Shown: one piece after another, positions 2,188 through 7,097 of the stretch | Position numbering within the stretch: position 1 is the stretch's first letter | Layout of the letters: each line of letters starts with the position of its first letter | Virus record (IMG/VR): IMGVR_UViG_3300014204_000179 | Location: 5,325 to 69,324 of that record | Strand: one strand, 5' to 3' | DNA: 64,000 nucleotides | Origin: a virus | Lineage: Duplodnaviria > Caudoviricetes | The notes under the pieces: model-generated | Told to the model about the DNA's origin: nothing | The model's input: only the letters and a program-made list of their open reading frames with translations | The model's database searches: none | Made by a program: the position numbers and the translations under genes

Positions 2188-3294
2188 TTATAAAGTAAAC
2201 CTATTTTGTTTTTGTGCTTTACGTTTTAATTCATTTACATTACGATATGCTTCAGGATTAAAATTCTCCCTTTTTACTATTGAAACTAAGAAATTAAATT
2301 CATTTTGACAAATAACTTGACCAATATAATCATTATTCTCTGTCTTAAGAACATAACTTTTTGGTGCTCTACTTGTAGAAGAAGGATTACCTTCAACATC
2401 AATTGTTGCATCGAAAGTAAGATCAAGAACTTCCTGAATTTTTTCCTGAACATTTGCAGTCATCTTTTCTTTAGTTCTAATTAATGCTTTTTCAAGTAAA
2501 TCAACAATACTATCTTGATGATTTTTTTTAATTTCTTCATATGCCTGAGTAAATTCAGTGTTTGAAGTTTTCTGCTTCAATTCACTTATAATTGCAAGTG
2601 CACCATAACAGTCACGAATCATTAAATCCCAAACTTGTTCAGCATAAGTAAATGAAGGAAATTTATCAATTGCAACAATTTCACCATCAATTAATATAAC
2701 AACACCAATAAGGTTTTTGGGACGTTCAAAGTGAGCAATAAATTGTTCAAGTTTCTTATCATATTTTTCAAAATATACATTAAGATAACGACCAGTACCT
2801 GAATCGGTTTCACGACCTAATTTTTCAATAGCCGGATAAATTCTACCAAGATCAGATGGTTTTCCGATAGTATCAAATACCATTTCACGCATAGTTATCG
2901 GAAGCATACGAAATTCCTGAGTACCTCTAAATGTTCCACCCTGAGAACCTTGAACACAACCAGCATCATGGTAAGTAATGTTTGATTTACTTGCCATATA
3001 ACCTGCTTTGGTCATACCATGATTCTGAGCACTTTGTTTAGTAATTACCGCCATTTGTGTTGGTAAAATAATTTCCTTATCTTCTTTATTGGTAAAACTA
3101 ATCTGACCATATGTAGAATTACCAGCAACTAATGAAGTCAATGGATTAGCAAAACGTTCATCCATAGAATATTCTTTATCAGTCGTTAAACATACAACTT
3201 GCATATTTAATATGCTTTGTATTACTATGTTACCGTTTTTATCTTTAATTGGACGACAACCTTTTAATAGTTCAGTAAAATCTCTTGTATTCAT
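2188..3294 (-). CDS. ARPP-1 (DUF6569)-like protein
   Basis: Motifs AQNH...AGCVQGSQGG and GVVILIDGEIVAIDKFPS...VW..M.RDCYG resemble the ARPP-1/DUF6569 family (recognised from memory, needs HMM confirmation). Confidence 0.6.
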   Translation of the reverse strand: MNTRDFTELLKGCRPIKDKNGNIVIQSILNMQVVCLTTDKEYSMDERFANPLTSLVAGNSTYGQISFTNKEDKEIILPTQMAVITKQSAQNHGMTKAGYMASKSNITYHDAGCVQGSQGGTFRGTQEFRMLPITMREMVFDTIGKPSDLGRIYPAIEKLGRETDSGTGRYLNVYFEKYDKKLEQFIAHFERPKNLIGVVILIDGEIVAIDKFPSFTYAEQVWDLMIRDCYGALAIISELKQKTSNTEFTQAYEEIKKNHQDSIVDLLEKALIRTKEKMTANVQEKIQEVLDLTFDATIDVEGNPSSTSRAPKSYVLKTENNDYIGQVICQNEFNFLVSIVKRENFNPEAYRNVNELKRKAQKQNRFTL

Positions 3295-3710
3295 AATAAA
3301 TTAATTTTAATATTTATTTTTTCACATGCTAAATTATATACTTCAAACGCTAATTCTTCTGTTTCAAATCTACCTAAAAATTTTGTTTTATTACAAATTG
3401 TTATTCTTGATATCCAAGGTTTTTGAGAATTTTGTTTATCTTGCGATACACCAACATATTTACTACTACTTTTCATTCTTCTTCTCGCATGATGAGTATT
3501 CTCTCTTGAAGTACACCATTCCAAATTTAATAAAAAATTATTTTTTCTATTTCTATCCTTATGATTTACTTCATTTAAATTATTTAAATAAGGAATAAAA
3601 GCTTCAGCAACTAATCTATGTATAGTATGTGACTTATTTATATTATTTTTTGATAAAGTTACTAAAACATAACCTTCACTTATAAAAGTATTTTTCAATG
3701 AACCTTTCAA
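3291..3710 (-). CDS. HNH homing endonuclease with C-terminal AP2-like domain; NUMOD4 segment continues upstream in frame to about 3812
   Basis: IHRLVAEAF...EVNHKDRNRKNN...NLEWCTSREN (HNH) and SKYVGVS...W.SRI...K.KFLGRFETEE.A..VYN (AP2). The same frame upstream reads KNIVGYEGYYQISNFGRVRS (NUMOD4). Confidence 0.85.
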   Translation of the reverse strand: MKGSLKNTFISEGYVLVTLSKNNINKSHTIHRLVAEAFIPYLNNLNEVNHKDRNRKNNFLLNLEWCTSRENTHHARRRMKSSSKYVGVSQDKQNSQKPWISRITICNKTKFLGRFETEELAFEVYNLACEKINIKINLL

Positions 3711-3838: not shown

Positions 3839-5467
3839 TTAAACGTTAATACTAATTTTTTTTGACCTTTTAATTGGTATAGATTCAAGAACCAATACCT
3901 GATTTTCAAGCCACTTTTTGGTATCAATTTCAAGCAACCTTGCGTTAATCTGTGGTTGTAATGCTACTGGATTGTTAATTGCCATTGTAATAACCTTTGA
4001 ACCCAATTTTCTCACATTACCACCCATTTCAGCACTGGTAATTGGTGAAATTTGAAACATTGGAATATTTCTACCACTTTCTGCTGTCCAAATACCTATA
4101 ACTTCATTTGTTAATCCATCATAAGCATTTTCATAACCATCAGTTAAAATGAAAATTGCATCATATGGTTTTAAAGGATTTTCCCTTTTTAATAAATCAA
4201 TAAATGAAGTAGCTAAATCAGTAACTTCACCTTCAGTTCCGATTATAACACCTGTTTTTGTAGACTTCAAAAGAACTTTTGCTGTAAATTCTGCAATAGC
4301 TTTTGGGGTGTTTTTAGATTCTTGTTTATGACCAGTCATTGAATTACTATTATCAACAATAATACCAATATTTTGATAAAAGAATCCATCAATCTTCTTC
4401 TTTTCTGCAAGTTTATCAATTGCAGTTTTAATTTCATTAGTAAAACCATTTTCATAACCAGTTTTGTAAAGTGCTAAGAAATCAGTTGCCTTTTCCAAGT
4501 CAACATTTTTTTCAACACCTAACTTAGCTGTCGATTTTGTTTGACGTACCTGCTGGTTAATAGAAGTAACTTCAACATTTTTCCTAATTAAAGCTTTTGT
4601 TGTTTCTTTCTGAAGTTTTGTTGCCCACATTGAATGATATTGTGGATGTTTTACACTTGAAATTAAACCCAAAAGAACTTCTTCCGGTACAGTTTTAATT
4701 CCAGTAACATCTACTTTTGCTTTTTGATATTCACTCAAAAGAGGAAATTCTGTTACATCATAAGTGATATTATCATCCCTTTTGTAAATAAAAAGTAATA
4801 GTTTAAATGCTTTAATTGCATCACCATTAAAATACTTCAAAATTAATTCATTTGCAATATTTCCTTCCTTTTCATTACTAATTCCAGTAGGATATGTTAT
4901 CTGCTTACTTGCTATTGAAAGCAATACTGATGTCATTTTATTTCCATAAATATGTTTTAAAACCTGAGCAATCTTATTACGATATTTCATCGTATAAAAT
5001 TCAAGATTTGATTGACCCCAAATAAAACCAAGTGCAATCTTTCTTGATCTTTCATTATTTACTTTAGCACTTTTCAATCCCACAAATAAACGAAGAACAT
5101 ATGGAATACCATTTTCACCAAGATTATTTAATGCAGACAAAACTGCTTTATCACTTAATCCATTATCATACCAGTCAAGTGGATTAACAATATTACATGC
5201 TCCACCCCTTAAAGTACTTTTAAATTCATTAAGTAATACCTCTGAAATAAACAGACCTGTAGCACCTTTTTGATTTGCTACAATTAAAGGTAATTCTTTC
5301 GAAAGCATATACAAATTCCTAATTTGAGTTTGAATAGCTTTTGTTTGATCTTCTTTCTTATGGTAATAAGTAGCACTGCTCTTAGCACCACTTGCAACAG
5401 TTAAACCATCAATTAATGATTGTTTTACTATACTGAGCATTTTTTGTGTTAATACCAAATCTTTCAT
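3839..5467 (-). CDS. vWA-domain protein with ~360-aa helical N-terminal region (Ro60/TROVE-like architecture)
   Basis: C-terminal MIDAS motif IIVDNSNSM...TDLA...IFILTDGYEN. The 542-aa size and helical-N/vWA-C layout match Ro60/Rsr. The TROVE assignment is an inference. Confidence 0.65.
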   Translation of the reverse strand: MKDLVLTQKMLSIVKQSLIDGLTVASGAKSSATYYHKKEDQTKAIQTQIRNLYMLSKELPLIVANQKGATGLFISEVLLNEFKSTLRGGACNIVNPLDWYDNGLSDKAVLSALNNLGENGIPYVLRLFVGLKSAKVNNERSRKIALGFIWGQSNLEFYTMKYRNKIAQVLKHIYGNKMTSVLLSIASKQITYPTGISNEKEGNIANELILKYFNGDAIKAFKLLLFIYKRDDNITYDVTEFPLLSEYQKAKVDVTGIKTVPEEVLLGLISSVKHPQYHSMWATKLQKETTKALIRKNVEVTSINQQVRQTKSTAKLGVEKNVDLEKATDFLALYKTGYENGFTNEIKTAIDKLAEKKKIDGFFYQNIGIIVDNSNSMTGHKQESKNTPKAIAEFTAKVLLKSTKTGVIIGTEGEVTDLATSFIDLLKRENPLKPYDAIFILTDGYENAYDGLTNEVIGIWTAESGRNIPMFQISPITSAEMGGNVRKLGSKVITMAINNPVALQPQINARLLEIDTKKWLENQVLVLESIPIKRSKKISINV

Positions 5468-5538
5468 TATATAAAAATTTATTTAAATGGTTATTTAAAA
5501 TTTCACTTGGTAAATATATATAAAATTATCTAAATAAA

Positions 5539-5594
5539 AAATAAAATGGGCAGAGTAGGCATATTTCTATGCCTTGTCCCCACCCATTTTATTT
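5539..5594 (-). terminator. Long hairpin with GAAA tetraloop and U-rich tail between the RNA array and the vWA gene (terminator or processing site)
   Basis: Minus strand ATAAAATGGG-TGGGGACA-AGGCATA-GAAA-TATGCCT-ACTCTG-CCCATTTTAT, followed by TTTTTATTT. Confidence 0.6.
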
Positions 5595-5622
5595 AAGGAA
5601 TAACTTATCTTCTCAATAAAGA

Positions 5623-5693
5623 GAAGAAGTTCGACTGTATTGTTTAATAATTATTATATTTCAAATATTTACTGAAAACACAATCAGTTCTTC
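5623..5693 (-). ncRNA. Array unit A: conserved module closing an AT-rich loop (no tRNA part)
   Basis: 5' GAAGAACTGATTGTGTTTTCAGTA pairs with 3' ACAATACAGTCGAACTTCTTC (GAAGAA/TTCTTC and ATTGT/ACAAT). Confidence 0.7.
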
Positions 5694-5815
5694 CAAATAT
5701 TTTTGAAAAATATCACACTTCTGTGATTTAAAATCATTTTTAACCTACGAACTAAAAAGAACGTTTCAAATGTTAGGCGGTAATTTTTATATTCTGATAC
5801 CGACAGAAATAATGT

Positions 5816-5960
5816 TTGGGAACATTTTAAAAGTATTTTTTGTTATAAATGCAAGTTTAAGAGACTTGTGCCTTATCCAGCTTGGCTAATCGTTCAATTT
5901 TTGAAGAACAATATCGGATTCGAACCGATGAATTACTGTAAACACTTTTCGTTTTCCCAA
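5816..5960 (-). ncRNA. Array unit B: circularly permuted tRNA-Lys(CTT)-like RNA joined to the conserved module at the variable loop
   Basis: Order on minus strand: module 5' strand, T arm ATCGG-TTCGAAT-CCGAT, acceptor 3' ATTGTTC, 10-nt linker, acceptor 5' GAACGAT, TA, D arm GCC-AAGCTGGATAA-GGC, anticodon arm CAAGT-CTCTTAA-ACTTG, module 3' strand. Confidence 0.85.
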
Positions 5961-5964
5961 TTTG

Positions 5965-6098
5965 CGGGGAGAGTTGGAGTCGAACCAACATAAACTGTTT
6001 TCACACAATTATTTTACCTTTTTTACTGAAAACACCATTAGTTTTCCCATTTAAGGGAATATTGAGATAGTATTATTTTTCGATATTTCTATCTCCCC
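5965..6098 (-). ncRNA. Array unit C: tRNA-like RNA with the module inserted in place of the D-loop; degenerate 6-nt anticodon loop
   Basis: Acceptor GGGGAGA/TCTCCCC is perfect. T arm GTTGG-TTCGACT-CCAAC. Anticodon-like arm ATTGT-GTGAAA-ACAGT. Insert AATACTAT..TTCCC-ttaaat-GGGAA-AACTA-ATGGTGTT-TTCAGTA. Confidence 0.8.
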
Positions 6099-6128
6099 AT
6101 TTTAATATTTTAAAGAACTTTAAAAATT

Positions 6129-6205
6129 AGAAGAAGTTTGTTAGTTTTTGTTTTGTAATGATTCGATTTACCGTCAAATTTACTGAAAAAACTATCAGTT
6201 CTTCT
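6129..6205 (-). ncRNA. Array unit D: conserved module closing a short insert with a T-loop-like remnant
   Basis: AGAAGAACTGATAGTTTTTTCAGTA ... AAAAACTAACAAACTTCTTCT; core TAGTTTTT pairs 8/8 with AAAAACTA; the insert contains TCGAATC. Confidence 0.7.
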
Positions 6206-6212
6206 TTTTTAG

Positions 6213-6286
6213 TAGCGGGAGTGGGATTTGAACCCACGAACTTGTGGTTATGAGCCACACGAGATGACCATCTTCTCCATCCCGCA
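6213..6286 (-). tRNA. tRNA-Met (CAT), initiator-like 1:72 mismatch, CCA not encoded
   Basis: Full cloverleaf: TGCGGGA/TCCCGCT, D arm GAGA/TCTC, TGTGG-CTCATAA-CCACA, GTGGG-TTCAAAT-CCCAC. Confidence 0.9.
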
Positions 6287-6295
6287 ATATATTTT

Positions 6296-6423
6296 AAAAA
6301 GGATATTGTGTTTGTTGTGTTTGTTTAAGAATATGGGAATTGAACCCACGACATTCTGCTTACGAAGCGGATGCTCTACCAATTGAGCTAATTCATACTG
6401 AAACAACAATCAGTTTCCTTTTT
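6296..6423 (-). ncRNA. Array unit E: conserved module clamped around a complete tRNA-Thr(CGT)-like cloverleaf
   Basis: AAAAGGAAACTGATTGTTGTTTCAG precedes the tRNA and AAACACAACAAACACAATATCCTTTT follows it (AAAAGGA/TCCTTTT and TTGTTGT/ACAACAA). Confidence 0.8.
6325..6397 (-). tRNA. tRNA-Thr (CGT)-like cloverleaf embedded in unit E
   Basis: TATGAAT/ATTCTTA (one mismatch), GCTC-AATTGGTA-GAGC, TCCGC-TTCGTAA-GCAGA (one mismatch), GTGGG-TTCAATT-CCCAT; no CCA. Confidence 0.7.
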
Positions 6424-6425
6424 TG

Positions 6426-6560
6426 TGGGGAAGGTAGGAATCGAACCTACAATCAACTGTTCTAAAGACAATTTGCTGTACCTTTTACTGAAATCACAAT
6501 CAGTTCTCCAGCAGGAGTATGACGATTATAATCTTGTTTTTTATATTTGCATACTTCCCC
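6426..6560 (-). ncRNA. Array unit F: tRNA-like RNA with the module inserted in the D-loop; anticodon position reads TTA
   Basis: Acceptor GGGGAAG/CTTCCCC, D-stem TGC/GCA around a long insert ending GGTACAGCA, ATTGT-CTTTAGA-ACAGT, T arm GTAGG-TTCGATT-CCTAC. Confidence 0.8.
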
Positions 6561-6612
6561 ATTAATTTACTTCACAATAAGTGAAAGAACTTTTTTTATT
6601 ATAAAGACGATG

Positions 6613-6643
6613 CAAATGTATTTTAAAAAAATTTACTATGCAA
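6613..6643 (-). promoter_or_regulatory. Bacteroidota housekeeping-sigma promoter driving the RNA array
   Basis: Minus strand TTG (6643-6641), 20-nt spacer, TACATTTG(CA) (6620-6613); matches the TTG-N19..21-TAnnTTTG consensus. Confidence 0.75.
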
Positions 6644-6689
6644 GCTTTTTTTAATATATTTTAAAATATATTTTTGAACGTCTGAAAAA

Positions 6690-6697
6690 ATAAATAC
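6690..6697 (-). promoter_or_regulatory. GTATTTAT putative late-promoter motif upstream of the RNA array
   Basis: Same octamer as found upstream of many structural genes in this window. Confidence 0.45.
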
Positions 6698-6743
6698 TAT
6701 CAAGTTTTAAAAAAGACTGAATTTCAAAATTTTTTTTATTATT

Positions 6744-6796
6744 TAAGATGATTTTTTAAAATTCCTTTCAATACTGTGGGGAAAGTGTGGGTAATT
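6744..6796. repeat. Left arm of perfect 53-bp inverted repeat
   Basis: TAAGATGATTTTTTAAAATTCCTTTCAATACTGTGGGGAAAGTGTGGGTAATT is the exact reverse complement of 7098-7150. Confidence 0.95.
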
Positions 6797-7097
6797 ATTT
6801 TTAACCTTCAAAAATTTCAATCTTCTGAAAGTATTGATAAACCTCAAAAGTTGAAAAATCAATTCCTCTGAAAGTCAATACAGGTAACGTTTTAACACTT
6901 ATCATATTGAATATCAATAATTAGACCTTCATTTTTTTTTGTTTAAGCTAAAGTAAAATATAATATATTTTTTTATTATATAAAATTAATGATAGGGTAT
7001 TATTATTTTATTATTTATGCTAAGAGAAAAAAATTTTGATAGTCTAATTATTGATAATTAATGGATTAACTATAAAAACGTATTTCAGTAATTTGAA

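What the first reader, a model, noticed from the sequence alone, without database searches (positions are those of the whole stretch)
6296..6423. Whole tRNA-Thr(CGT) clamped at its acceptor end by the handle
The module's terminal TA is also the first two nucleotides of the tRNA, and the module's partner strand follows the discriminator. Leader and trailer therefore pair and extend the acceptor stem. The tRNA has one mismatch in the acceptor stem, one in the anticodon stem, lacks the C2-G71 pair typical of bacterial tRNA-Thr, and has no CCA. Inference: it is either a permanently blocked tRNA mimic or a caged pre-tRNA whose release by RNase P/Z is controlled by the handle-binding protein.
Basis: partly seen in the sequence, partly recalled or inferred. 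Interest (0 to 1): 0.7.

Follow-up and report, generated by a model that had tools for sequence, protein, structure and literature searches.

The report
tRNA look-alike on a Ro60 handle
The "threonine tRNA" in this giant-phage fragment is most likely not a working tRNA but the tRNA-shaped end of a small RNA whose leader and trailer pair into a conserved handle, next to a very diverged Ro60-type RNA-binding protein; in related phages the same RNA carries 13 different anticodons.

Summary
On the minus strand, 6423-6296 is one unit: an 8-bp outer helix (P1), a small internal loop, a 7-9-bp inner helix (P2), a conserved UUCAGUA junction, and a complete cloverleaf (6397-6325, 62 bits, anticodon CGU). 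Both leader-trailer helices covary across 37 distinct orthologues and in distant loci whose helix letters are entirely different. So the roughly 130-nt RNA is under selection, not just a 73-nt tRNA.

Three results argue against a dedicated tRNA-Thr:
- Orthologues carry 13 anticodons, with at least 22 changes on a 36-tip tree. That is the rate of the unconstrained flanks.
- None keeps seven uninterrupted acceptor pairs.
- Seven have C33, and one clade has lost the D-loop GG and the normal T-loop.

The tRNA-Met 38 nt downstream keeps CAU wherever it is detected.

The 542-aa neighbour has no Pfam hit but folds as Ro60 (Z 18.3). An ARPP-1 gene follows it in 66 of 68 loci; in the other two the contig ends first.

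Best reading: a Y-RNA-like tRNA mimic, a new variant of Ro60/Y-RNA particles. Protein binding, RNA ends and function are untested. The scan has already reported this system in at least 19 other genomes. New here are the acceptor-end attachment of a whole cloverleaf and its freely changing anticodon.

The parts
6416..6423 (-). P1 5' strand (AAAAAGGA), the outer helix of the handle
   Evidence: Pairs 8/8 with 6303-6296. Alignment columns 14-20/143-149 are 98% paired. Compensatory variants include GAGA/UCUC, UGGA/UCCA and GGAGA/UCUCC.
6412..6415 (-). 5' side of the internal loop (AACU). AAC is invariant in all 37 orthologues, and GAAC is present in every distant locus examined.
   Evidence: (0 changes on the tree for A, A, C).
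6403..6411 (-). P2 5' strand (G, A, then UUGUUGU), the inner helix of the handle
   Evidence: UUGUUGU pairs 7/7 with 6318-6312, and G6411 pairs with C6310. The window's G-C at column 33/129 replaces A-U of most orthologues. G25-C136 becomes A-U in L057 and L001.
6396..6402 (-). Junction UUCAGUA. CAG is invariant. The final UA doubles as tRNA positions 1-2 in this copy.
   Evidence: 0 changes on the tree for C, A, G.
6325..6397 (-). Complete cloverleaf (called tRNA-Thr, anticodon CGU) = the tRNA-shaped cargo domain
   Evidence: ARAGORN; Infernal 62.2 bits. D, anticodon and T stems and the acceptor core all covary. The anticodon is hypervariable among orthologues.
6319..6324 (-). 3' side of the junction (ACAAAC), A/C-rich in all orthologues
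   Evidence: columns 119-127.
6310..6318 (-). P2 3' strand (ACAACAA, then A and C)
6304..6309 (-). 3' side of the internal loop (ACAAUA). 15 of 37 orthologues read CGAA here, the motif named for Y RNAs.
   Evidence: motif as described in PMC4201824 and PMC12135203.
6296..6303 (-). P1 3' strand (UCCUUUUU)
6212..6286 (-). Neighbouring tRNA-Met(CAU). It serves as an internal control and is a likely 3' processing landmark for the unit.
   Evidence: CAT is kept in every locus where ARAGORN finds it.
6426..6560 (-). Upstream unit F: a tRNA-like RNA with the same handle, permuted and inserted in its D-loop. It ends 2 nt before P1 of this unit.
   Evidence: (25-bit partial tRNA match).
3839..5467 (-). 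542-aa Ro60-like protein (helical ring plus vWA domain with a DxSxS MIDAS motif), the presumed handle binder
   Evidence: No Pfam hit. AF2 pLDDT 93. The top 13 Foldseek hits are all Ro60/TROVE. Z 18.3 to Xenopus Ro60, 14.9 to phage phiLo Ro60, 12.5 to D. radiodurans Rsr.
2188..3294 (-). ARPP-1 family protein, the near-constant partner gene of the Ro60-like gene
   Evidence: Pfam PF20208, E 3e-13. Found downstream of the Ro60-like gene in 66 of 68 fetched loci; the other two contigs end at that point.

Best explanation
Window 6423-6296 (minus strand) encodes one small non-coding RNA of about 130-140 nt, of the Y-RNA kind.

Anatomy. Its 5' leader and 3' trailer pair into a two-helix 'handle': P1, an internal loop with invariant AAC, then P2. 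An invariant CAG junction joins the handle to the acceptor end of a complete tRNA-shaped domain.

Proposed mechanism.
- The handle is the docking site for the Ro60-like ring protein encoded 830 nt downstream. All six RNA units of the array share it.
- The tRNA-shaped domain is displayed as a mimic that engages tRNA-recognising proteins. These could be host tRNA-cutting defence nucleases (as bait) or tRNA-processing and repair enzymes (as tether).
- It is not a dedicated threonine tRNA. The CGU triplet is one of many interchangeable states and is not used for decoding.
- The RNA is probably cut out of the array transcript when the flanking tRNA-like unit F and tRNA-Met are processed.

Shown: the RNA anatomy, the covariation of both handle helices and all four tRNA stems, the free evolution of the anticodon, the Ro60 fold of the neighbour, and the near-constant gene pairing.

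Inferred: protein-handle binding, the RNA ends, non-aminoacylation, and the bait/tether role.
For: - P1 and P2 are kept by compensatory changes in 37 orthologues (98% and 89.5% paired; 0/500 shuffles; slid controls 42-54%).
- They are also kept in loci whose Ro-like protein is only 26-38% identical and whose helix letters are entirely different, while GAAC and (U/A)CAG stay fixed.
- Each of the six units in the window has its own complementary P1 and P2.
- Anticodon: 13 triplets in 37 sequences. Parsimony gives 11, 14 and 13 changes at positions 34-36 on a 36-tip protein tree, against 11.5 and 10.1 per column in the flanks, 1.5 at positions 37-38, 1.3 in P1 and 1.9 in P2. The triplet changes at least 22 times.
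- The window's sister loci L003 and L004 carry UGA and UCA.
- tRNA-Met, 38 nt away, keeps CAU in every locus where it is found.
- No orthologue has 7 uninterrupted acceptor pairs; 5 or 6 is usual.
- Seven orthologues have C33. Eleven lack the D-loop GG, and nine of these also have a 6-nt T-loop.
- ARAGORN accepts only 19 of 37.
- The Leu- and Ser-type anticodons sit on a short variable loop.
- Loci with UCA or UUA still end genes with TGA and TAA.
- The neighbouring protein folds as Ro60 over 410 residues. Its gene and ARPP-1 are adjacent, or nearly so, in 66 of 68 loci.
- Known Ro60 proteins bind a stem-internal loop-stem formed by Y RNA ends, and bacterial Y RNAs carry tRNA-like domains (PMC4201824, PMC12135203).
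Against: - No RNA data exist for this phage, so neither the long species nor its ends have been seen.
- Binding of the Ro60-like protein to the handle is untested.
- The handle's invariant letters (GAAC, CAG) are not those of the classical Ro-binding helix. The CGAA motif is absent from this copy (ACAAUA) and present in only 15 of 37 orthologues.
- Rfam's YrlA model scores 23 bits against a cut-off of 69, and that match straddles two units.
- The window's own copy is a very good tRNA: 62 bits, canonical U8, G18G19, T54-Psi55-C56 positions and a 7-nt loop with U33. It could in principle be processed and charged.
- Lack of an encoded CCA is common in phage and many bacterial tRNA genes and says little.
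- An anticodon rate equal to the flank rate fits neutrality as well as diversifying selection, so the bait role is not demonstrated.
Confidence: 0.6

Rival explanations
1. Caged or slow-release real tRNA. The handle is a processing and stability module. RNase P and a 3' nuclease free a 73-nt tRNA, CCA is added, and it decodes. Anticodon switching between phages adjusts the supply of different tRNAs, including suppressors.
For: The window copy scores as a full tRNA with canonical tertiary positions. M. smegmatis YrlA is cleaved by RNase P and gains CCA in vivo (PMC4201824). Jumbo phages often carry tRNAs to offset host attacks on tRNA (PMC7824862). The anticodon loop keeps 7 nt and A37/A38.
Against: - Compensatory maintenance of 15-17 leader-trailer pairs is not expected for flanks that are discarded.
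- One scaffold with a weak A/U acceptor stem of 5-6 pairs would have to serve about 11 amino-acid identities plus two stop-reading triplets. These include Leu and Ser types without a long variable arm, and Thr without G1-C72/C2-G71 (the identity rules are from my own knowledge).
- C33 occurs in 7 orthologues, and the elbow is degenerate in one clade.
- UCA and UUA triplets occur in loci that still stop at TGA and TAA.
- The anticodon evolves at the flank rate, while tRNA-Met next door is fixed.
Confidence: 0.15
2. Adaptive bait or sensor. This is a sharper form of the mimic reading. The anticodon loop is the working part. Each phage lineage retunes three bases so that the Ro60-like particle presents the loop that its host's anticodon nuclease, or another anticodon-reading factor, attacks. 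The particle either soaks up the enzyme or reports the attack to the ring and ARPP-1.
For: - The triplet changes at least 22 times while positions 37-38, the stem and loop length stay fixed.
- Sister loci almost always differ in triplet.
- Several triplets (UUU, UUC, GUC, GUU, UCU) match tRNAs known, from my own knowledge, as targets of PrrC, gamma-toxin-type nucleases and colicins E5 and D.
- The window and L032 share an identical anticodon arm although their proteins fall in different clades.
Against: The rate does not exceed that of the flanks, which may be saturated, so selection cannot be told from drift. The commonest triplet, UCA (10 of 37), and UUA match no ordinary tRNA of a standard-code host except tRNA-Sec. 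No nuclease partner is identified. ARPP-1 has no recognisable fold.
Confidence: 0.2
3. Decaying tRNA gene beside a repeated processing or terminator element. The handle would be only an RNase III-type or punctuation signal for the array transcript, and the tRNA a pseudogene drifting at its anticodon.
For: The anticodon changes at the neutral rate. There are mismatches in two stems. Nearly half the orthologues are not recognised as tRNA.
Against: D, anticodon, T and acceptor-core stems all keep pairing through double changes (90-99% paired). Positions 8-9, 37-38 and most of the loops are nearly fixed, which a pseudogene would not show. The unit is kept with the Ro60-like/ARPP-1 pair down to 26-30% protein identity. 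P1 and P2 are short and interrupted, unlike about 20-bp RNase III stems (my own knowledge).
Confidence: 0.05

Closest known systems
YrlA Y RNAs with bacterial and mycobacteriophage Ro60 (Rsr) (Chen et al. 2014, PMC4201824; Rfam RF02553)
   Same: A small RNA encoded beside a Ro60-type gene. [quoted passage not shown] Several different RNAs occur per locus.
   Different: In YrlA the tRNA-like domain is circularly permuted: the acceptor stem is closed by a loop and the Ro-binding stem replaces the anticodon arm. Here the whole cloverleaf is present, anticodon arm included, and the stem is joined at the acceptor end. The conserved letters differ (GAAC, CAG instead of GNCGAAN0-1G). The Rfam model does not reach threshold (23 against 69 bits). 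The protein has no TROVE Pfam hit, is about 13% identical to known Ro60, and is paired with ARPP-1 rather than RtcB/RtcA.
M. smegmatis YrlA, nicked by RNase P and CCA-tailed (PMC4201824)
   Same: A Y RNA whose tRNA-like domain is good enough to be a substrate of tRNA enzymes. It shows that a mimic and partial processing can coexist.
   Different: That RNA has a 7-bp acceptor stem closed by a loop, and cleavage opens the loop. Here the acceptor end runs into the handle, 7 pairs are not conserved, and cleavage would leave the leader held by 15-17 pairs. No processing data exist here.
Thermus phage phiLo Ro60 with Yrl1/Yrl2 (PMC12135203; PDB 9KOP, 9L5Y)
   Same: A phage-encoded Ro60 with Y-like RNAs encoded just upstream. 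The RNAs have a 5'-3' stem around an internal bulge. The protein model here aligns to it at Z 14.9.
   Different: The phiLo RNAs were picked by a CGAA bulge and are not described as carrying a cloverleaf. No ARPP-1 partner is reported. A link to PNPase is shown there and is untested here.
D. radiodurans Yrn1 (PMC4201824)
   Same: A Y RNA that can be drawn with a possible anticodon arm as well as T-arm features.
   Different: Its loop has 6 nt, its D arm is doubtful, and its orientation relative to the RNA ends differs. Here the cloverleaf is complete and covaries.
Ordinary phage-encoded tRNAs that offset host tRNA depletion (review in PMC7824862)
   Same: Located in a jumbo-phage tRNA region. 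The window copy passes tRNA detectors.
   Different: Orthologous phage tRNAs keep their anticodon, as tRNA-Met does here. They have 7-bp acceptor stems and no conserved leader-trailer helices.

Membership tests
tRNA (Rfam RF00005 / ARAGORN cloverleaf) | Sequence-structure score above the family cut-off | tested here: met
   62.2 bits against a cut-off of 29, model positions 1-71. ARAGORN calls tRNA-Thr(cgt). Only 19 of 37 orthologues pass ARAGORN.
Functional bacterial tRNA-Thr | G1-C72 and C2-G71 acceptor pairs used by ThrRS (identity rule from my own knowledge) | tested here: not met
   U1-A72, A2-U71, U3.U70.
Functional bacterial tRNA-Thr | Anticodon conserved among orthologues | tested here: not met
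   13 triplets in 37 orthologues, at least 22 changes on the tree. The sister loci carry UGA and UCA.
Functional bacterial tRNA-Thr | Seven-pair acceptor stem with a free 5' end and a 3' CCA end after processing | tested here: inconclusive
   The window copy has 6 of 7 pairs. Orthologues have 5-6 contiguous pairs and none has 7. No CCA is encoded. Processing could not be tested; no RNA runs were found.
Functional bacterial tRNA-Thr | Aminoacylation with threonine | not testable with these tools
   Needs a charging assay.
YrlA (Rfam RF02553) | Covariance-model score above the gathering cut-off | tested here: not met
   23.0 bits against 69. The match (6479-6342) joins the T arm of unit F to the D arm of this unit, so it straddles two units.
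YrlA (Rfam RF02553) | Permuted tRNA-like domain: acceptor closed by a loop, Ro-binding stem in place of the anticodon arm | tested here: not met
   This unit has normal 5'-3' cloverleaf order, a full anticodon arm, and the stem attached at the acceptor end. Another unit of the same array (about 5960-5818) is permuted.
YrlA (Rfam RF02553) | GNCGAAN0-1G / CGAA motif in the Ro-binding internal loop (PMC4201824, PMC12135203) | tested here: inconclusive
   The window copy reads ACAAUA. 15 of 37 orthologues read CGAA at the same place, on the 3' strand.
Y RNA in the broad sense (Ro60-bound small RNA) | 5' and 3' ends pair into a stem-internal loop-stem | tested here: met
   P1, an internal loop (AACU / ACAAUA) and P2, with covariation.
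Y RNA in the broad sense (Ro60-bound small RNA) | Encoded beside a Ro60 orthologue | tested here: met
   The unit lies 830 nt upstream of a protein with the Ro60 fold, in the same orientation. The linkage is kept in 45 of the 60 loci searched (L001-L060) and, by direct reading of the sequence, in 5 of the 8 distant loci fetched later (L061, L064, L066, L068 and, weakly, L067; L062, L063 and L065 were not found to carry a unit or were not inspected).
Y RNA in the broad sense (Ro60-bound small RNA) | Physically bound by the Ro60 protein | not testable with these tools
   Needs EMSA, RIP or a structure.
Ro60 / TROVE (for the 542-aa neighbour) | TROVE domain recognised by sequence profile | tested here: not met
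   No Pfam family even at E 10. A profile of 71 relatives finds only a weak vWA match in the PDB.
Ro60 / TROVE (for the 542-aa neighbour) | Helical-repeat ring closed by a vWA domain with a MIDAS motif (fold) | tested here: met
   AF2 pLDDT 93. The 10 best chains are all Ro60: Z 18.3, rmsd 4.3 A, 409 residues aligned to 2i91. The next hits are vWA-only at Z 9.8 or less. D372, S374 and S376 are invariant or nearly so in the family.

The most novel reading that the evidence does not exclude
The three anticodon bases are the programmable part of a phage ribonucleoprotein. The Ro60-like ring holds a tRNA look-alike by its acceptor end and presents its anticodon loop as bait or sensor for host anticodon-directed defence enzymes. 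Phage lineages retarget it simply by changing the triplet, which would explain at least 22 switches among 36 close relatives. If so, this would be a counter-defence device retuned by three bases and the first assigned role for a Y-RNA tRNA mimic.
Probability: 0.2. Interest if true: 0.85.

Novelty: new variant of a known kind. Interest (0 to 1): 0.62.

Why it matters
Why bacterial and phage Y RNAs imitate tRNA has been an open question since 2014. This family offers a cleaner test case. The mimic is a whole cloverleaf held by its acceptor end. Its handle is defined by covariation down to 26% protein identity. Its anticodon is the one part that changes freely while everything around it is fixed.

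That pattern gives direct experiments: swap the triplet, break and restore P1 or P2, pull down the Ro60-like protein. It also has a practical side. Genome annotation pipelines will call such units ordinary tRNA genes, including 'suppressor' and 'tRNA-Sec' calls, and so inflate phage tRNA counts and suggest recoding where there is none.

Tried and rejected
- **Local hairpin reading of the 20-nt repeat (ACUGA...UCAGU).** It is 87.8% paired, but only one pair covaries. G25 covaries with the trailer instead, and the hairpin cannot form in the GGAACUAG...UACAG clade. Rejected in favour of the long-range P2.
- **Rfam.** No family other than tRNA reaches threshold. The YrlA match (23 bits) and the permuted-tmRNA match (16 bits) are weak and cross unit borders.
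- **Sequence-level identification of the 542-aa protein.** Pfam, NCBIfam and the PDB, by phmmer and by profile, give nothing beyond a faint vWA signal. Only the fold comparison identified it.
- **Expression.** No RNA holder is listed for this DNA. Only DNA runs from a landfill and a groundwater metagenome hold it, and these may be its source.
- **ARPP-1 partner.** The AF2 model has pLDDT 84, but Foldseek (best E 0.009) and VIA-align against 48,161 chains (best Z 3.7) found no relative. No function could be proposed from the fold.
- **Papers.** A search for ARPP-1 returned only unrelated mammalian ARPP proteins. The Burroughs and Aravind 2016 paper is not held.
- **Stop-codon reassignment as an explanation for UCA/UUA triplets.** Long ORFs in those loci still end in TGA (8 of 55) and TAA.
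- **Promoter/terminator scan of 5300-6800.** Counts are no higher than in shuffles.
- **Not attempted.** Complex prediction for the Ro60-like protein with ARPP-1, because it lies outside this finding.
Full report
**What is in the sequence**

All features lie on the minus strand. ARAGORN and Infernal find two tRNAs in the window: tRNA-Thr(CGT) at 6397-6325 (62.2 bits) and tRNA-Met(CAT) at 6286-6212 (61 bits).

A 20-nt motif, AACTGATnGTnnTTTCAGTA, occurs five times within 840 nt on this strand, plus one degenerate copy. None of 100 shuffles gives as many. One copy (6415-6396) ends with the TA that ARAGORN takes as tRNA positions 1-2.

- U3.U70 is mismatched in the acceptor stem.
- C29.A41 is mismatched in the anticodon stem.
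- Pairs 1-72 and 2-71 are U-A and A-U instead of G-C and C-G.
- ACAAAC follows the discriminator, so there is no CCA.

**Leader and trailer pair**

AAAAAGGA (6423-6416) pairs 8/8 with UCCUUUUU (6303-6296); I call this helix P1. UUGUUGU (6409-6403) pairs 7/7 with ACAACAA (6318-6312), and G6411 pairs with C6310; this is P2. Both the single-sequence minimum-energy fold (-28.9 kcal/mol, z -2.7) and RNAalifold recover P1 and P2 without being told.

Between P2 and the acceptor stem lie UUCAG on the 5' side and A73 plus ACAAAC on the 3' side. The handle therefore joins the acceptor end through a junction and is not a seamless extension of the stem.

**Comparative evidence**

The 542-aa ORF downstream (5467-3839) has 59 relatives at 66-80% identity on IMG/VR contigs of up to 360 kb, and one at 27% in a 462-kb phage. 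The window itself is a 69-kb virus fragment, about 23% complete.

nhmmer finds the orthologue of this RNA unit in 45 of those 60 loci, giving 37 distinct sequences including the window. Counts on that alignment:
- P1 is 98% paired, with four pairs changed on both sides. Examples are AAGGA/UCCUU becoming GAGA/UCUC, UGGA/UCCA and GGAGA/UCUCC.
- P2 is 89.5% paired, with five such pairs. The window's own G-C replaces the usual A-U, and G25-C136 becomes A-U in two loci.
- The four tRNA stems also covary.
- For the whole structure, 0 of 500 shuffles reach the observed values. Partners slid by 1-3 columns pair 42-54% against 92.9%.

A local hairpin within the motif was my first idea. It has one covarying pair and conflicts with the G25-C136 covariation.

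I then fetched loci for protein relatives of only 26-41% identity. Five of these eight loci carry handle-type units in the gene-free stretch upstream of the gene. The P1 and P2 letters are wholly different but still complementary, for example GGGAGA/UCUCCC with GGUCUA/UAGACU, and GCCGG/CCGGC with ACGUUGU/ACAACGU. GAAC after P1 and (U/A)CAG after P2 remain fixed. In three of these loci (L061, L064, L066) a unit carries a tRNA-like cargo.

All six units in the window have their own complementary P1 and P2. In two of them the handle is permuted and inserted in a D-loop, and in one the cargo is a permuted tRNA.

The handle is therefore a conserved structural module, and the long RNA is what selection sees.

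**The cargo is tRNA-shaped but not a dedicated tRNA-Thr**

- *Anticodon.* The 37 orthologues carry 13 anticodons: UCA 10, GUC 6, UUC 4, CAA 4, CGU 2, UAA 2, UAU 2, UUA 2, and UCU, UUU, UGA, AUC, GUU once each.
- *Rate.* On a maximum-likelihood tree of the neighbouring protein, the window is sister to L003 and L004 (support 100/98), which carry UGA and UCA. L032, the only other CGU, lies in a different clade. Parsimony gives 11, 14 and 13 changes at positions 34-36. That equals the rate of the flanks outside the unit (means 11.5 and 10.1). Positions 37-38 change 1.5 times, P1 1.3, P2 1.9 and CAG 0. The triplet as a whole changes at least 22 times on 36 tips.
- *Control.* tRNA-Met, 38 nt downstream, keeps CAU in every locus where ARAGORN finds it.
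- *Acceptor stem.* No orthologue has seven uninterrupted acceptor pairs; 5 or 6 is usual.
- *Loops.* Seven orthologues have C33. Eleven lack the D-loop GG, and nine of these also have a 6-nt T-loop. The C29.A41 mismatch is shared by 17 of 37.
- *Detection.* ARAGORN of 37 a tRNA.
- *Identity.* The Leu- and Ser-type triplets sit on a short variable loop.
- *Stops.* Loci with opal- or ochre-reading triplets still end long ORFs with TGA (8 of 55) and TAA.

A decoding tRNA would not behave like this. A structural mimic would: its stems, elbow, loop length and A37/A38 matter, and its triplet does not, or else the triplet is under changing selection.

**The neighbouring proteins**

The 542-aa protein has no Pfam, NCBIfam or PDB sequence match beyond a faint vWA signal. 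It does have a DxSxS motif that is conserved across 71 relatives.

Its AlphaFold model, built on that alignment, has pLDDT 93. The top 13 Foldseek hits are all Ro60/TROVE proteins. VIA-align gives Z 18.3 (409 residues, rmsd 4.3 A, 12% identity) to Xenopus Ro60, 14.9 to Thermus phage phiLo Ro60 and 12.5 to D. radiodurans Rsr. The next hits are vWA domains alone, at Z 9.8 or less. The family has 294 cluster representatives at E <= 0.001.

An ARPP-1 gene (PF20208) follows the Ro60-like gene in 66 of 68 fetched loci, and in the other two the contig ends before it. In the window an HNH_3 gene is inserted between the two. The ARPP-1 model finds no relative in the PDB.

**Comparison with what is known**

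Ro60 proteins bind Y RNAs through a stem-internal loop-stem formed by the RNA ends. Bacterial and mycobacteriophage YrlA RNAs add a tRNA-like domain that is modified by tRNA enzymes. M. smegmatis YrlA, the one with a 7-bp acceptor stem, is cut by RNase P and gains CCA (PMC4201824). Phage phiLo encodes Ro60 and two upstream Y-like RNAs with a CGAA bulge (PMC12135203). A review of jumbo phages notes TROVE proteins with a tRNA-like partner in a few of them (PMC7824862).

The present unit works like these but differs in several ways:
- The cloverleaf is complete and not permuted.
- The stem is attached at the acceptor end instead of replacing the anticodon arm.
- The conserved letters differ.
- The Rfam YrlA model fails (23 against 69 bits).
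- The protein is far outside the TROVE profile.
- The partner gene is ARPP-1.

I therefore class it as a new variant of the Ro60/Y-RNA kind, not as a YrlA member.

**Mechanism**

Most likely (0.6): the unit is a stable RNA of about 130-140 nt. Its handle docks on the Ro60-like ring, and its tRNA-shaped domain is displayed to tRNA-recognising proteins. Its ends are probably set by processing of the abutting unit F, which has a G/C-rich 7-bp acceptor ending 2 nt upstream, and of tRNA-Met downstream.

Whether the display is bait for host anticodon nucleases or a tether for processing or repair enzymes is open. The bait version with an adaptive triplet gets 0.2, included within the 0.6, because the turnover rate cannot be told apart from drift. 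A caged real tRNA gets 0.15 and a decaying gene 0.05; the remaining 0.2 is unassigned.

Binding, RNA ends and function are all inferred. No RNA runs hold this DNA.

**Relation to earlier notes of this scan**

My counts agree with them.

The same Ro60-like/ARPP/handle-RNA system has already been followed up in at least 19 other genomes. One note reports an acceptor-less tRNA mimic on such a handle and suggests the bait idea.

New in this report:
- the acceptor-end attachment of a whole cloverleaf;
- formal covariation for this unit across near and distant clades;
- the measurement that its anticodon evolves as fast as the flanks while the neighbouring tRNA-Met is fixed.

Noticed in passing
window 6212-6286 (-), and loci L016, L028, L038, L040, L042, L057: The conserved tRNA-Met(CAU) has a U1.U72 mismatch at the top of its acceptor stem. 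In several related loci it carries a 10-16-nt insertion in the variable region, giving 83-89 nt. The next handle unit starts about 10 nt after its 3' end.
   Followed up: partly
window 3291-3710 (-): An HNH_3 endonuclease ORF sits between the Ro60-like and ARPP-1 genes only in this window. In most related loci the two genes are adjacent. In L008-L011, L024, L025 and L055 there is a gap of about 575 nt instead, possibly another insertion.
   Followed up: partly
window 6354-6370 (-) and L032:3138-3285: The window and L032 share an identical 17-nt anticodon arm (UCCGC UUCGUAA GCAGA), although their Ro60-like proteins fall in different clades. The window's sister loci have a different arm. This points to either convergence or exchange of RNA cassettes between phages.
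   Followed up: partly
loci L021, L025, L026, L029, L030, L033, L035, L036, L039, L040, L060 (unit E orthologues): These 11 orthologues have lost the D-loop GG. Nine of them (all except L021 and L060) also have a 6-nt T-loop (GUCGAA, GUCAAA or AGUCAA type). The joint loss fits the two loops contacting each other in the tRNA elbow.
   Followed up: no
window 6424-6426 (-): Unit F ends (CUUCCCC plus A at 6426) two bases before P1 of unit E begins. The same F-E abutment recurs in about half of the related loci. This suggests that tRNA-type processing of the neighbours sets the ends of each unit.
   Followed up: no
window 5545-5600 (-): A GC-containing hairpin (AGGCAUA...UAUGCCU inside AAAAUGGG...CCCAUUUU) followed by a U run lies between the last RNA unit and the Ro60-like start codon. 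It looks like a terminator or attenuator, but the consensus scan did not flag it.
   Followed up: no
L062:1414-5635 and L063: In a 41%-identity relative, the Ro60-like/ARPP-1 pair lies about 100 nt from a divergently transcribed terminase large-subunit gene. No tRNA was detected and I saw no handle-type unit in the parts I read, so the RNAs may be encoded elsewhere in that phage.
   Followed up: partly
window 2188-3294 (-): The ARPP-1 partner gives a confident model (pLDDT 84) with beta-rich N- and C-terminal parts around a helical core, but it has no structural relative in the PDB (best Z 3.7).
   Followed up: yes
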